Shown one piece after another: positions 13,892 to 40,476 of a stretch of DNA of 64,000 nucleotides. Below the pieces are notes generated by a model. It searched no databases. It had not been told where the DNA came from and worked only from the letters and a program-made list of their open reading frames with translations. Position 1 is the stretch's first letter. The number at the start of each line of letters is the position of its first letter. The stretch is from Heptranchias perlo (taxonomy: Eukaryota). The stretch lies in NCBI RefSeq assembly GCF_035084215.1, contig NC_090366.1:10106001-10170000 (forward strand). Reading direction: 5' to 3'. Both the position numbers and the translations under genes were made by a program.

Positions 13892-14115
13892 ACAATTTTA
13901 CAACACCAAGTTATAGTCCAGCAATTTTATTTTAAATTCACAAGCTTTCGGAGGCTTCCTCCTTCCTCAGGTGAATGTTCCAACAAACGTTCACCTGAGG
14001 AAGGAGGAAGCCTCCGAAAGCTTGTGAATTTAAAATAAAATTGCTGGACTATAACTTGGTGTTGTAAAATTGTTTACAATTGTCAACCCCAGTCCATCAC
14101 CGGCATCTCCACATC
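13892..14115 (+). mobile_element. PLE terminal fold-back insertion between two N runs
   Basis: Inverted arms of about 88 bp around a ccaaca loop, followed by the same ccccagtccatcaccggcatctccacatc tail. Confidence 0.8.
13990..14028 (+). ncRNA. Minimal type-I hammerhead ribozyme motif (mirror copy on - strand at 13937-13975)
   Basis: ttcac-CTGAGGA-a-ggagg(aag)cctcc-GAAA-gc-TT-gtgaa: stem I ttcac/gtgaa, core CUGANGA, stem II, GAAA and a palindromic AGCU in place of stem III. Confidence 0.7.
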
Positions 14116-14816
14116 NNNNNNNNNNNNNNNNNNNNNNNNNNNNNNNNNNNNNNNNNNNNNNNNNNNNNNNNNNNNNNNNNNNNNNNNNNNNNNNNNNNNN
14201 NNNNNNNNNNNNNNNNNNNNNNNNNNNNNNNNNNNNNNNNNNNNNNNNNNNNNNNNNNNNNNNNNNNNNNNNNNNNNNNNNNNNNNNNNNNNNNNNNNNN
14301 NNNNNNNNNNNNNNNNTACACATGCGCACACACATACACATGCACACTCACATACACACTCACATACGCACACACATACACATGCACACTCACATACACA
14401 CTCACATACGCACACTCATACACACTGACTCACACACATACATATGCACACTCATACACACTGACTCACACACATACATATGCACACTCATACACACTGA
14501 CTCACACATACATACTCACATTCACACACATACATGGGCACACTCACACACATACATGTGCACACTCACATACACATTCATTCACACATACACACACATC
14601 AGATACACACTTACACACACATACACACTCAAAAACACACACACACACGTACACACACGCACTGCACGCACTCCTCCATCAGAATCGCAACGACAGTTCC
14701 CAGAAACATGAGGGCATCTGAGGAACTGACTGCAAGTCTTGCGGTTTGAAATACCCCATCCGCTGCCGAAAATTATCTCTCACCGATGACGGGGGTGAAC
14801 GCACGGCCGGACTCAC

Positions 14817-14824
14817 CCGGCCAT
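14817..14824 (-). CDS. Candidate first coding exon (M-A-G) of an unidentified minus-strand gene
   Basis: Minus strand reads ggagATGGCCGG|gtgagt: good Kozak context and a consensus donor inside a unique, CpG-containing region (14670-15190). Confidence 0.25.
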
Positions 14825-15192
14825 CTCCTCCCACTTATTGTTGTCGATGCTGTTTCGGCCGGAGTTCCTGTTAATTCGCCTCCCCGAGGGATTCCGAGCG
14901 GGGCTGGCAGTGAATGAGTCAGGCTGGTGCCGCGTTTCCAGCCAGCCAGCTGATTGCAAGTCACAAGGGGCCACATCAGACCTTGTGGGGCTCTGGATTT
15001 GAACTCGAGAGTTCACTCCGACAGCCCTGCGATCTTCCCAGCTTCACAAAGGCTCAGTCCTTGAACACACTGAGACTTCACTTGCACACCCCAGCCCAGA
15101 CCGCAGCAAACACAAAACCTCTTCTCTGTCAGCTGCGTGGGAAATTAGTTCAGGGGCAGACTCAAGTTCTGGGCCTTTAAAGCTGCAAGACT

Positions 15193-36945: not shown

Positions 36946-37691
36946 AGATGCCAATCCTTCAGGATTGTCCTGGAGTCTCCAGAAATTGAAGATTAAATCT
37001 CATTGACAAATTCGTACAGGGTAGATGCAAGGAGGATGTTCCCCATGCCTGGGGGAGGGAGGGTGGTGTCTGGATCCAGGGGGTCACAGTCTCAGAATAA
37101 AGGGGTCGGCCATTTAGGACTGAGATGAGGAGAAATTTCTTCACTCAGAGGGTGGTGAATCTTTGGATTTCTCTACCCCAGAGGGCTGTGGTTGCCAAGT
37201 CATTCAAAGCAGAGATCGATAGATTTCTAGACATTAAAGGCATCAAGGGATATGGGGATGGTGCAGGAAAATGGCCTTGAGGTAGAAGATCAGGCATGAC
37301 CTGATTGAATGGCGGAGCAGGCCCGAGATGGCTGACTCCTGCTCCTGTTTCTTATGTTCTTATGTTCTCCTAGGACACTTGCTGCGAGCAAAAGCCCCAG
37401 GAGAAAAACCACGGGGAACTCAAAACAAAATTTCCATTTTACTTTGAACGCTCTCATTTCTTAGTTATTGAAATATCGGAGACAGAGAAAAAAAAACAGG
37501 CTGTTTGACTAACAGTCGAGATGAATCCAATTGGGTAAGGAAGAGTCTGTTCGCTTTCCAATTGGTCGTGAAAAAGCGGAGGGGGGTGGGGTGGAGCCTG
37601 GAGGATGGACCAATGGCGGAGGGACGGTTCGAGGCAGGAGGTCATGTGACGAAATCTCCAGGAATACGTCCAACCAGAGTTGGCAACCCTC
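36946..37691. mobile_element. Same hAT-type MITE family in the opposite orientation, interrupted by a CR1 3' end (fragments also at ~2095-2178 and ~18743-18920)
   Basis: caggattgtcctggagtctccag...gattaaatctc, then CR1, then gctgcgagc...ccaaccagagttggcaaccct; colinear with the reverse complement of 45628-46008. Confidence 0.75.
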
Positions 37692-39601
37692 AGTAAGGGC
37701 GTTCAGTGATAATCACCGTGCTTTCCCATTCACGATATGTGTTGAAATGCAACAGAGGGAATTAAATGGAAAGGCCCCATTCCCTGATCATGAGCAAGGA
37801 CATTAATATTTGGTTTTCCCAGGTAATAGGCTCCTGAAAACAAGGACAACAATCCCAAAATATAAGAGACGAGTTTGGTTAATTCAGTGAAGCAGAAATC
37901 CAGATTCTGGGCACCGCAGCTCAGGAAGGAGATATTGGCCTTGGAGGGGGTGCAGAGCAGATTCACCAGAATGATACCGGGGCTAAAAGGGTTAAATTAC
38001 GAGGACAGGTTGCACAGAATTCCCTTGAATATTGAAGATTAAGGGGTGATCTAATTGAGGTGTTTAAGATGATTAAAGGATTTGATAGGGTAGATAGAGA
38101 GAAACTATTTCCTCTGGTGGGGGGTGTCCAGAACGAGGGGGCAAAACCTTAAAATTAGAGCCAGGCCGTTCAGGGGTGATGTCGGGGAAGCATTTCTTCA
38201 CACAAAGGGGAGTGGGAATCTGGAACTCCCTCCCCCCAAAAAGCTGTCGAGGCCGGGGGGCCAATTGAAAATTTCAAAAACTGAGATTGATCGATTTTTG
38301 TTGGGTGAGGGGATTAAGGGTTACGGAACCAAAGCCGGTAAATGGAGTTAAGATACAGATCAGCCGTGATTTTAAATGAATGGCGGAACAGGCTCGAGGG
38401 GCTGAATGGCCTCCTCCTGTCCCTATGCTTACAGCCAACGATGGACTTTTTTTGAAGTGTAGTCACTGTTGTAATGTAGGAAACGCGGCAGCCAATTTGC
38501 GCACAGCAAGATCCCACAGACAGCAATGTGATAAATGACCAGATCATCTGTTTTTAGTGATTTTGGTTGAGGGATGGATATTGGGCCCAGGACACCGGGG
38601 AGAACTCCCCCCTTGCTCTTCTTCGAAATAGCGGCCGTGGGATCTTTTACGTCCAACCTGAGAGGGGCAGACGGGGGGCCTCGGTTTAACGTCTCATCCG
38701 AAAGACGGCACCTCCGACAGTGCAGCGCTCCCTCAGTACTGGCACTGGGAGCGTCAGCTTAAAAACTTATCCCTTAAACGCACACTGAAGGATTGAAAGA
38801 CTCGTCTGTGAGGGTGTTAGCATGCACTGTTTTATCCCCTAAATGCCTTTTGTGGTGTCAGCCTGATATGTTTGAGGCAATTTAGCGGTTACTGCTTTTG
38901 GACGTTCCTGTTTTCAGTACCCACGGTCTCCCTGGTGTAACTTCCTAAACATAAAACCAATTAGCTATAGACCACATTCTGATACAGCCCTGGACAATGC
39001 AGGTCAGAAGCTGCAACTCGTTGAAATGCCTGGAGTCAGGGCGAAAATATTCAGCTGTCAGGAGACTTTGCAACTTTCAGTTTTCATTTGACTTTGACCC
39101 TTGCTGGATGTGAACAGACTGCCGGGGAACTGGAACAAAACACAGCAGGTCACGGAGATAGGGAGAGAAAAGGAGACACAGAGATGCACACTGAGTGGGA
39201 GGGGGAGAGTGGGGGAGCTGGGGAGGGGAGAGAGAAGGAGAAGGGGAGAGTGGAAGAATGGGGTGGGGAGTGAGAGGGGGAGAGGGAGGCAGAAGGGGAG
39301 AGGGATGAGTGAGAGAGGGAGAGGGAGAGATTACTACAACCCTCCCACACAAACTCTCTGTTGTTCCCATTCCAGCCTCTTGTGCATCCCCCCATCCTTA
39401 ACCCCGCCATCGGTGGCCTAGGACACTGGAATTCTCCCCCTAAACCCCTCTGCTTCTCTCCTTCTTTAAAACCCACCTCTTTGACCAAACGTTTGGTCAG
39501 CCCTGCTCCCTCCCTCTAAGGTCTCCCCCTTTGCCTTGACACCCAGCTTCCTTCCTTGCCCCTCTCTGAAGCATTAGGACATTAAAAGCACTGAATAAAT
39601 A

Positions 39602-40476
39602 TGGTGTGGAGATGCCGGTGATGGACTGGGGTTGATAATTGTAAACAATTTTACAACACCAAGTTATAGTCCAACAATTTTATTTGAAAATCACAAGCTT
39701 TCGGAGGCTTCCTCCTTCCTCAGGTGAATGTCAAGAAATCCTCGAACCCTTCGCATTTATAAATCACAGAACAATGCCTGGTGATTACAGATAGTCTTTT
39801 CAACTGCCCGTTGCCAAGGCAACCGAAGTGTTCAGACAGATAGGTGTTACCTACAGGGCCACCGAATGTACAAACGGCCAGAACTAAAAAAAACAGGTGA
39901 TGTGGAGATGCCAATTAAAAAAACAGAGAGAGAGAGAGGCAGAAACATCTGGAAGGAAAAGACAGCAATTGACCCGTTATATTAAAAACAGATAACATTT
40001 GTTCGCTGGTGGGGTAACGTGTAGCGTGACATGAACCCAAGATCCTGGTTGAGGCCGTCCTCATGGGTGCGGATCTTGGGTTCATGTCACGCTACACGTT
40101 ACCCCACCAGCGAACAAATGTTATCTGTTTTTAACATAACGGGTCAATTGCTGTCTTTTCCTTCCGGATGTTTCTGCCTCTCTCTCTCTGTTTTTTTAAT
40201 TGGCATCTCCACATCACCTGTTTTTTTTCGTTCTGGCCGTTTGTATATTCGGTGGCCCTGTAGGTAACACCTATCTGTCTGAACACTTTGGTTGCCTTGG
40301 CAACGGGCAGTTGAAAAGACTATCTGTAACCACCAGGCATTGTTCTGTGATTTATAAATGCAAAGGGTTCGACGATTTCTTGACATTCACCTGAGGAAGG
40401 AGGAAGCCTCCGAAAGCTTGTGATTTTCAAATAAAATTGTTGGACTATAACTTGGTGTTGTAAAATTGTTTACAAT
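39602..40476 (-). mobile_element. Penelope-like element (PLE), 5'-truncated, with inverted pLTR forming a palindrome of about 840 bp
   Basis: Arms 39638-40045 and 40071-40476 are near-perfect inverted repeats around a 25-nt loop. The minus strand encodes THEDGLNQDLGFMSRY, resembling the C-terminus of a PLE GIY-YIG ORF. There is an unpaired tail at 39602-39637 and a TSD tgaataaatatg / tgaatgaatatg. Confidence 0.85.
40387..40423 (+). ncRNA. Minimal hammerhead ribozyme motif (mirror copy on - strand at 39691-39727)
   Basis: tcac-CTGAGGA-a-ggagg(aag)cctcc-GAAA-gc-TT-gtga. Confidence 0.7.

What the first reader, a model, noticed from the sequence alone, without database searches (positions are those of the whole stretch)
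13892..40476. Family of fold-back Penelope-like insertions carrying dimer-type hammerhead ribozymes
Seen: three independent palindromic insertions (13892-14115, 22561-22776, 39602-40476) and one single arm (8337-8458) share the same terminus. Five intact copies of tcac-CUGAGGA-A-GGAGG-N3-CCUCC-GAAA-GC-UU-guga are present, two on the + strand and three on the - strand. The catalytic core is intact, but stem III is reduced to the self-complementary AGCU and there is one extra A before stem II. Knowledge: PLE pLTRs are known to carry minimal hammerheads that are thought to cleave as dimers. Inference: a recently active ribozyme-bearing retroelement family is seeding long hairpins (four insertions within about 32 kb), which could yield dsRNA, cruciforms or self-cleaving transcripts.
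Basis: partly seen in the sequence, partly recalled or inferred. Interest (0 to 1): 0.75.

Follow-up and report, generated by a model that had tools for sequence, protein, structure and literature searches.

The report
Inverted Neptune retrotransposon ends in shark
These hairpin-shaped DNA pieces are ordinary truncated copies of a very abundant shark retrotransposon, and their small self-cutting RNA motif is already known and is probably blocked in these copies by its own mirror image.

Summary
In detail: five intact minimal hammerheads (2 on +, 3 on -; none expected by chance), three fold-back insertions and one older single arm.

They are 5'-truncated ends of an abundant shark Penelope-like retrotransposon with a Neptune-type linker. 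The 875-bp copy ends in the last 29 residues of the element's ORF. These match shark RT + GIY-YIG proteins, and public contigs continue from there into that ORF.

The layout is the one already published for this class: head-to-head arms, a 34-35 nt tail on one arm only, and 11-14 bp target-site duplications. The extra A and the palindromic stem III are also published. The scan noted this pattern before in two other shark windows.

Paired hammerheads lie on opposite strands, so read-through RNA makes the antisense arm first and buries the ribozyme: dsRNA is plausible, dimer cleavage is not. The long copy is old (arms 2% diverged).

Additions: 8/9 and 6/7 nt microhomology at two apices, and a nested 20-bp insertion that seems to carry both element ends. 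These hint, weakly, at priming from both target strands.

The parts
8337..8458 (+). Single arm of an older subfamily: degenerate hammerhead (A9>G, stem II mismatch) plus full tail; sits in a dispersed repeat; no clear TSD
13892..14115 (.). Fold-back insertion 1: arms 13892-13979 and 13986-14073, 6-nt spacer, tail 14081-14115 on the right arm; flanks are N
13942..13970 (-). Intact minimal hammerhead (C3 to H17)
13995..14023 (+). Intact minimal hammerhead (C3 to H17)
22548..22561 (+). Left 14-bp TSD of insertion 2 (its outer 2-3 nt also fit the element ends)
   Evidence: an uninterrupted copy of the host LINE at 63618-63896 has the site once
22562..22776 (.). Fold-back insertion 2: tail 22562-22595 on the left arm; right arm starts at 22691 inside the hammerhead
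22654..22682 (-). Intact minimal hammerhead (U in loop II, shared with the other arm)
22691..22697 (.). Apex microhomology, 6 of 7 nt; carries the allele of the tail-bearing arm
   Evidence: (loose end at 39728, 75 contigs, agreement 0.51)
22775..22788 (+). Right 14-bp TSD of insertion 2 (14 of 14 identical)
39592..39602 (+). Left 11-bp TSD of insertion 3
39603..40476 (.). Fold-back insertion 3: tail 39603-39637 on the left arm; about 408-bp arms (ORF end, 3' pLTR, hammerhead); 25-nt spacer 40046-40070
39695..39723 (-). Intact minimal hammerhead
39897..39916 (.). Nested micro-insertion: 15-16 nt of the tail end plus AATT, flanked by an A7-8-CAG duplication
   Evidence: forms without it (X5 joint 39888-39970, X9 record 30, X9 loose end 39872)
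39982..40071 (-). Last 29 codons and stop of the PLE ORF (GIY-YIG C-terminus, with the conserved N of GLN)
40071..40079 (.). Apex microhomology, 8 of 9 nt; carries the allele of the tail-less arm
   Evidence: (loose end at 40079 in 71, 10 and 1 contigs of X4, X5, X10)
40198..40217 (.). Mirror copy of the nested micro-insertion
40391..40419 (+). Intact minimal hammerhead
40476..40486 (+). Right 11-bp TSD of insertion 3 (10 of 11 identical)

Best explanation
The insertions are dead, 5'-truncated products of target-primed retrotransposition by an abundant shark EN+ Penelope-like element of Neptune type (shown; about 0.93). Each insertion is built afresh. Most likely route (inferred; about 0.45): the GIY-YIG endonuclease nicks an AT-rich target on both strands 11-14 bp apart. 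One nick primes reverse transcription at the outer end of the AC-rich tail and the other at an inner site 34-35 nt away. The two antisense cDNAs stop early and join by 3-9 nt of microhomology, which gives head-to-head arms, a one-sided tail and a TSD. The hammerhead is the class's usual pLTR motif carried along as a passenger. It would need a same-strand partner, or protein help, to cut. In read-through RNA it is locked in a long duplex with the antisense arm made before it, so these copies should yield dsRNA if transcribed, not self-cleavage (inferred from folding; about 0.8).
For: ORF end at the apex: 94% identical to exonised PLE ends in two Heptranchias perlo isoforms, which tie to an RT + EN family (16 hits of 121 candidates; a 54-member cluster). 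That family has DKG, YIDD, a CX4CxxC linker and the CCHH motif (definitions in PMC8557442). Its predicted C-terminal domain matches I-TevI best (prob 1.00, TM 0.77 on target, E 0.066). Public contigs fit to 40079 and then read on into the codons preceding P0001 (translated by hand). TSDs in 2 of 2 palindromes with visible flanks, and an empty-site copy for one. Tails of 34 and 35 nt, as published (PMC8557442; PMC3846280); two RT start sites flank the tail and both strands are cut and extended in vitro (PMC11167929). Three different apices; microhomology 8/9 and 6/7 (nominal chance 1e-4 and 1e-3, windows chosen after the fact). The nested insertion's tail piece stops about 14 nt in, short of the inner site, yet ends in CAATT like the tail-less end. 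The apex mismatch is resolved to arm 2 in one case and arm 1 in the other. Read-through folds: native stem II probability about 1e-18 in 5 of 5.
Against: No full-length element was seen in this genome (no G000), so the link to the RT rests on 29 residues plus 30-nt loose ends. Pfam and NCBIfam gave no GIY-YIG hit, the model is weak (mean pLDDT 51) and no fold match reached E 0.001. For two-primer assembly: the two arms share the rare nested insertion and the loop II variant, which snap-back copying explains automatically but two primers explain only with one source RNA or locus. The nested-insertion clue is 3-5 nt (chance roughly 1/64 to 1/1000) and the allele clue is 2 cases. The tail-less end sits in an AATT palindrome and the Anolis enzyme prefers ATT, which fits endonuclease trimming just as well. 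Folding ignores protein chaperones and transcripts that start inside an arm.
Confidence: 0.8

Rival explanations
1. Same element, but the second arm is copied from the first. The 3' end of the first-strand cDNA (or of an antisense RNA, as PMC3846280 proposes) folds back on a short microhomology and self-primes; the endonuclease then trims the new arm at the AATT palindrome, 34-35 nt short of the tail end.
For: The predicted 3' ends fold back exactly at the junctions as single-stranded DNA (z -2.0, -1.2 and -2.2, the first and third partly by construction). Arms share rare variants, including the nested insertion. Self-priming and 'EN-mediated resolution' are the published readings.
Against: It predicts the tail-arm allele at every apex mismatch, but the 875-bp copy has the other allele. 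It leaves the AATT of the nested insertion to chance. Two RT start sites were mapped in vitro.
Confidence: 0.4
2. One reading: a recently active family seeds self-cleaving, dimer-type ribozyme transcripts at these loci.
For: Core intact in 5 of 5. A double-hammerhead fold through AGCU can be drawn (-20.5 to -24.7 kcal/mol). The only listed common change within the core falls on the neutral N7 (39719; 45 rows not shown). Same-strand tandem joints exist elsewhere in single contigs (table 5c). Insertions 1 and 2 differ at 1 of 121 nt.
Against: No same-strand neighbours closer than 5.6 kb among cores on one strand (8337 and 13995, the first degenerate). The antisense arm buries the core. The double-hammerhead fold is 9-12 kcal/mol above the dimer MFE. 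Published min-HHRs cleave weakly even as dimers, the Anolis one only with protein, and 1 of 9 Xenopus dimers cleaved. The long copy's arms are 2.0% apart (95% CI 0.9-3.9).
Confidence: 0.1
3. A non-autonomous palindromic element (MITE, foldback or retrozyme) that moves as a ready-made unit.
For: Shared termini and TSDs; no RT in the window copies.
Against: Three different apices and lengths (215, at least 224, and 874 bp); asymmetric ends; one copy holds the ORF end; no head-to-tail units in the window.
Confidence: 0.04
4. The palindromes are fold-back read or assembly artefacts.
For: No strand-changing joint among the 15 of 16 joints shown; insertion 1 has N on both sides.
Against: TSDs, a constant one-sided tail, and arm-private mutations where the other arm has the family allele (39825 and 39868, over 99% other allele). 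Only one arm was laid and the contigs are short, so the missing joint says little.
Confidence: 0.02

Closest known systems
Canonical EN+ Penelope-like element insertions with inverted pLTR and tail (Arkhipova et al. 2013, PMC3846280; Craig et al. 2021, PMC8557442)
   Same: Head-to-head inverted 5'-truncated copy, 30-40 nt tail on one end, TSD near 10 bp, overlap at the inverted junction, AT-rich targets.
   Different: Copies here are very short (both arms truncated, no full ORF). TSDs are slightly longer (11-14 versus 8-10 bp). Junction microhomology and the nested 20-bp insertion are read here as a hint of two primers rather than self-priming.
Minimal hammerheads of metazoan PLEs (Cervera and de la Pena 2014, PMC4209133)
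   Same: No stable helix III, palindromic 15.2-16.2, extra base between 9 and 10.1, G10.1-C11.1, helix I of 4-5 bp, opposite-strand pairs 100-700 bp apart, mostly in truncated copies.
   Different: Helix II is 5 bp (7-8 in the Schistosoma families). Sharks are not named in the text I read; its supplementary alignments were not seen.
Poseidon element of Anolis (Frangieh et al. 2024, PMC11167929)
   Same: AC-rich tail defined by two RT start sites; hammerhead just upstream of it; insertion into its own pLTR proposed.
   Different: Other clade (no CX2-5CxxC linker in Poseidon). There the tail lies about 111-118 nt into the ORF; here a weak loose-end consensus (agreement 0.43) suggests the tail ends at a start codon.
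Non-LTR retrozymes (Li et al. 2026, bioRxiv 10.64898/2026.07.22.740005)
   Same: PLE-derived type I hammerheads in vertebrates, including one chondrichthyan.
   Different: Retrozymes are head-to-tail tandem, non-coding units; these are inverted pairs and one holds the ORF end.
LINE-1 twin priming (recalled, not read here)
   Same: Both target nicks prime cDNA; joined by microhomology; gives an inversion within one TSD.
   Different: In L1 the two cDNAs copy non-overlapping parts of the RNA; here they would overlap almost wholly and so give a palindrome.

Membership tests
EN+ Penelope-like elements | Single ORF with RT and C-terminal GIY-YIG endonuclease | tested here: met
   Met on relatives: RVT_1 in 3 of 3 scanned; I-TevI best fold match (E 0.066). 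The window holds only the last 29 residues.
EN+ Penelope-like elements | DKG motif and CCHH zinc motif within the endonuclease | tested here: met
   DKG in the 3 of 8 rows that reach it; two Cys between VY and YIG in 7 of 8 rows (P0001 does not reach it); definitions.
EN+ Penelope-like elements | Inverted 5'-truncated copy with a 30-40 nt tail at one end | tested here: met
   3 of 3 palindromes; tail 34 and 35 nt where both ends are visible.
EN+ Penelope-like elements | Target-site duplication | tested here: met
   2 of 2 palindromes with visible flanks; not found at 8337; not testable at 13892 (N).
EN+ Penelope-like elements | Full-length partial-tandem master copy in this genome | not testable with these tools
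   No genome held; run contigs too short.
Neptune clade | CX2-5CxxC linker between RT and EN | tested here: met
   CX4CxxC in 7 of 8 rows. Shared with Nematis; only Neptune and Poseidon were found in vertebrates.
Neptune clade | Placement in an RT phylogeny with reference PLEs | not tested
   No reference PLE set was fetched.
Metazoan PLE minimal hammerhead | Core CUGANGA / GAAA / UH, extra base at 9-10.1, G10.1-C11.1, palindromic 15.2-16.2 | tested here: met
   5 of 6 copies; the 8337 copy fails at A9.
Metazoan PLE minimal hammerhead | Covariation in stem II across copies | tested here: inconclusive
   No stem II variation in 5 intact copies; one uncompensated change at 8337; one search hides 45 variant rows.
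Metazoan PLE minimal hammerhead | Self-cleavage as a dimer | not testable with these tools
   Only folding energies. Rfam gave no hammerhead hit at E up to 5.
Non-LTR retrozyme | Head-to-tail tandem, non-coding units each with a hammerhead | tested here: not met
   Only inverted pairs or a single arm in the window; ORF end present.
MITE / foldback DNA transposon | Fixed-length unit with symmetric terminal inverted repeats | tested here: not met
   Three different apices and lengths; asymmetric ends.

The most novel reading that the evidence does not exclude
Inverted PLE insertions are made by priming from both target nicks at the two tail-flanking RT start sites, followed by microhomology joining, not by self-priming. 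The shark family, with very many short copies, is then a natural junction library that can settle how PLEs make their second strand: count insertions shorter than the tail that still carry both ends, and count which allele survives at apex mismatches. As a by-product the element masks its own hammerhead and seeds long dsRNA hairpins genome-wide.
Probability: 0.4. Interest if true: 0.55.

Novelty: new member of a known kind. Interest (0 to 1): 0.24.

Why it matters
As described, it matters little: structure, ribozyme type and dsRNA potential of Penelope-like insertions are published (Penelope is a heavily hyper-edited repeat in lizard, PMC5625713), and the scan has met this pattern in other shark windows. 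What could matter is mechanism. How PLEs build the inverted arm and the one-sided tail is still open in the papers read (PMC3846280, PMC8557442, PMC11167929), and the junction features seen here give two cheap genome-wide tests between two-primer assembly and self-priming.

Tried and rejected
Whole genome: none held, so no copy count and no master element.

Rfam: 13 matches at E up to 5, none a hammerhead; the miRNA and snoRNA hits over the palindromes are below gathering score and reflect hairpin shape.

Collection scans with a 20-nt motif: 1 metagenome match, unrelated on inspection; 0 viral matches. P0007 found no confirmed viral locus.

Other PLE coding fragments in the window: none seen in a motif scan of six frames or in Pfam scans of about 190 of 268 filtered ORFs.

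Sequence search of PDB with the family profile: 1 weak RT hit, E 0.65. The weak LT-IIB Pfam match on P0010 (E 0.046) is treated as noise.

Expression: no RNA holder listed. Run X5 is only guessed to be RNA and has no cover on the unique flank; neither is used for or against transcription. Low cover over 39901-39938 in X4 overlaps a skipped repeat and is not used. Summed depth is not used as a copy number. X4 may be the assembly's own sample.

(promoter scan on 2 bases) was a mistake and gave nothing. Look-ups of earlier findings by sequence and by place were empty.

Rejected: retrozyme, MITE/foldback and artefact readings (see rivals).
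Full report
1. Observation. The hammerhead pattern occurs 5 times, at 13995+, 40391+, 13970-, 22682- and 39723-, against 0 in 100 shuffles. A relaxed scan of both strands added only a degenerate copy at 8337. The palindromes are not symmetric: one arm carries an extra AC-rich tail of 34 nt (22.6 kb) or 35 nt (39.6 kb). 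The 13.9-kb copy also has the tail on one arm, but its flanks are N. The 22.6-kb copy has a 14-bp TSD inside a LINE fragment (CR1-like is my recalled label), and another copy of that LINE at 63618-63896 has the site once. The 39.6-kb copy has an 11-bp TSD with one mismatch. Over 121 shared nt the 13.9-kb and 22.6-kb arms differ at 1 position, the 39.6-kb arm at 5-6, and the 8.3-kb arm at 14-16, so three subfamilies are present.

2. Identity. The apex of the 875-bp copy encodes, on the minus strand, a 29-residue ORF end. It is 94% identical to the C-termini of two Heptranchias perlo isoforms (2 hits of 4 candidates), in which this element's end has been annotated as a last exon. The EN-like part of one of them found 16 hits among 121 candidates: 13 annotated shark proteins (counting the query itself) and 3 unnamed metagenome proteins. 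One is the representative of a 54-member cluster. Aligned relatives show DKG, YIDD, a CX4CxxC linker, two cysteines between VY and YIG, and the conserved R, H, E and N. PMC8557442 (passages) names these as marks of PLE endonucleases and of the Neptune/Nematis linker. Pfam and NCBIfam detected only the RT. A weak model (mean pLDDT 51; about 70-83 over most of the EN region) matched the GIY-YIG domain of I-TevI best (prob 1.00, rmsd 2.6, E 0.066). Contigs of public runs laid on one arm (4 of 10 listed runs) fit up to 40079 and then continue, in 71, 10 and 1 contigs of X4, X5 and X10, into codons that by hand translate to the residues preceding the ORF end. The host is therefore very likely a shark. 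In X4, 33,655 contigs were laid on 551 bases, with summed depth of 7-12.7 million over tail and hammerhead against 44.9 on the unique flank. The tool warns that this is no copy number; I take it only as very high abundance, which makes four insertions in one window unremarkable.

3. The ribozyme. Each intact copy folds with helix I (4-6 bp) and helix II (5 bp) and has no helix III of its own; A15.1-G-C-U16.1 is palindromic and H17 is U, so the predicted cut site is right. PMC4209133 (parts 1-2 of 4 read) already lists the extra base between 9 and 10.1, G10.1-C11.1, the palindromic 15.2-16.2, and opposite-strand pairs 100-700 bp apart. It found no monomer cleavage and low dimer cleavage. A double-hammerhead fold can be drawn but lies 9-12 kcal/mol above the dimer minimum. 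Because the arms are head-to-head, a transcript crossing an insertion on either strand makes the antisense arm first. In 5 of 5 read-through folds with an intact sense copy, 22-29 of its 29 nt pair with the far arm and native stem II has probability near 1e-18; the sixth strand has no intact copy. These insertions therefore cannot supply a same-strand dimer. Same-strand tandem joints do occur elsewhere, in single X4 contigs (table 5c). Among listed variants only N7 changes within the core (39719), but 45 rows were hidden, and covariation in stem II could not be shown. In Anolis the hammerhead cut only with protein and was not needed for insertion in vitro (PMC11167929, parts 1-2 of 4). One of nine Xenopus dimers cleaved (bioRxiv 10.64898/2026.07.22.740005, parts 1-3 of 5).

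4. Age. The long copy's arms differ at 8 of about 400 nt plus one microsatellite indel (2.0%, 95% CI 0.9-3.9). At two of these sites the right arm has the allele of over 99% of family depth, so they arose after insertion. At 7e-10 per generation (epaulette shark, PMC10587355, passages) 1% per arm is on the order of ten million generations. The rate is uncertain tenfold and from another species, but the copy is not recent. The short copies (1 of 88, 0 of 79) cannot be dated.

5. How the fold-back forms. The three apices differ, so the inverted arm is made at each insertion. In the long copy the right arm starts at 40071 while family contigs fit through 40079: a 9-nt overlap with 8 matches. In the 22.6-kb copy the upstream family sequence (loose end at 39728, 75 contigs, agreement 0.51) overlaps the right arm by 7 nt with 6 matches. 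For the 13.9-kb copy only about 3 nt can be argued. Two routes fit. Snap-back self-priming is the published reading (PMC3846280, passages and Discussion), with endonuclease trimming giving the tail; it explains at once why arms share rare variants. Priming from both target nicks fits the in vitro finding that both strands are cut and extended and that two RT start sites flank the tail. Two small clues favour the second route. First, the apex mismatch carries the tail-less arm's allele in the long copy (relatives read KFR, the window KIR) but the tail arm's allele in the 22.6-kb copy, whereas snap-back predicts the tail arm's allele each time. Second, both arms of the long copy hold a nested 20-bp insertion with its own 10-11 bp duplication; forms without it appear in a joint of X5 and in contigs of X9. 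Its tail piece stops about 14 nt in, well short of the inner site, yet it ends in CAATT like the tail-less ends. The clues rest on 2 cases and on 3-5 nt, so I put two-primer assembly at about 0.45 and snap-back at about 0.4. Searches for such a proposal for PLEs listed no paper that makes it by title or abstract start. I did not read the three papers listed, and the library lacks key subscription papers (recalled: Arkhipova 2006; Evgen'ev and Arkhipova 2005), so I do not claim it is unpublished.

6. Context. A V-set exon (46643-47026) and a second Ig exon (48788-49186) lie on the plus strand 6-8 kb downstream of the long copy. Whether the insertions are intronic is unknown. If read through, they would give duplexes of about 88, 86 and 408 bp. 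Penelope is heavily hyper-edited in lizard (PMC5625713, passages), so that consequence is known for the class. I have no expression evidence for these loci.

7. Known or new. Every main feature is published for EN+ PLEs; searches for sharks in particular listed nothing on this family's palindromes beyond a retrozyme survey that includes one chondrichthyan. No supplementary files were opened; those of PMC4209133 and of the bioRxiv preprint may list shark hammerheads. PMC6155905 (passages) was used only as background. Two earlier notes of this scan describe the same pattern in other shark windows; they are unchecked and are not support. Verdict: a real feature, a new member of a known kind, interest 0.24, with a modest testable lead on PLE second-strand synthesis.

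Noticed in passing
window 39897-39916 and 40198-40217: Nested 20-bp insertion of the element's own tail end plus AATT, with a 10-11 bp duplication, present in both arms of the long copy: the element had inserted into its own pLTR before this copy was made.
   Followed up: partly
window 46643-47026 and 48788-49186 (+): V-set and second Ig-domain exons of a host cell-surface gene; gene not identified, first exon not found.
   Followed up: partly
proteins P0003, P0004, P0009, P0012, P0017, P0019, P0029: Annotated shark isoforms (FAM204A, XRCC5, PPP1R12A-like, septin 5a, a P450, NOXP20-like, DIPK2Ab) contain this element's coding sequence; shown as a C-terminal piece for P0003 and P0004. Could be exonisation or annotation error.
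   Followed up: no
window 15045-16057, 16769-17263, 29934-31078 and from 35308 on: A 65-bp minisatellite, up to 98-100% identical between units, recurs in several arrays; at least two sit next to LINE RT fragments or within about 1 kb of them.
   Followed up: no
window 10425-11528 (+): 368-codon open frame with an RT domain (Pfam RVT_1, E 2e-12), looks like an L1/Tx1-type LINE remnant (label recalled).
   Followed up: no
window 15861-16781, 52353-53462, 62671-63896, 22400-22950: Several LINE fragments, most with RVT_1 hits (CR1-like, label recalled); 63618-63896 serves as the empty site for the 22.6-kb insertion.
   Followed up: partly
window 39601 (run X5 loose end): 17 contigs continue beyond the tail; their weak consensus (agreement 0.43) suggests the tail ends at a start codon, and the TSD edges share 1-3 nt with it.
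   Followed up: no
table 5c, joints 39728-39635, 39729-39601, 39790-39601: Single contigs show head-to-tail repeats of about 120-190 nt holding the hammerhead: retrozyme-like tandem units of this family elsewhere in the genome.
   Followed up: no
window 44589-45364, 54561-55385, 1095-1626, 17316-17856, 2844-7073: Further minisatellites (69, 22, 23, 39 and 26 bp units) and a long GA-rich repeat.
   Followed up: no
window 13091-13720, 13726-13891, 14116-14316, 25336-25541, 53465-54217: Runs of N (1954 bases in all); two directly abut fold-back insertion 1.
   Followed up: no
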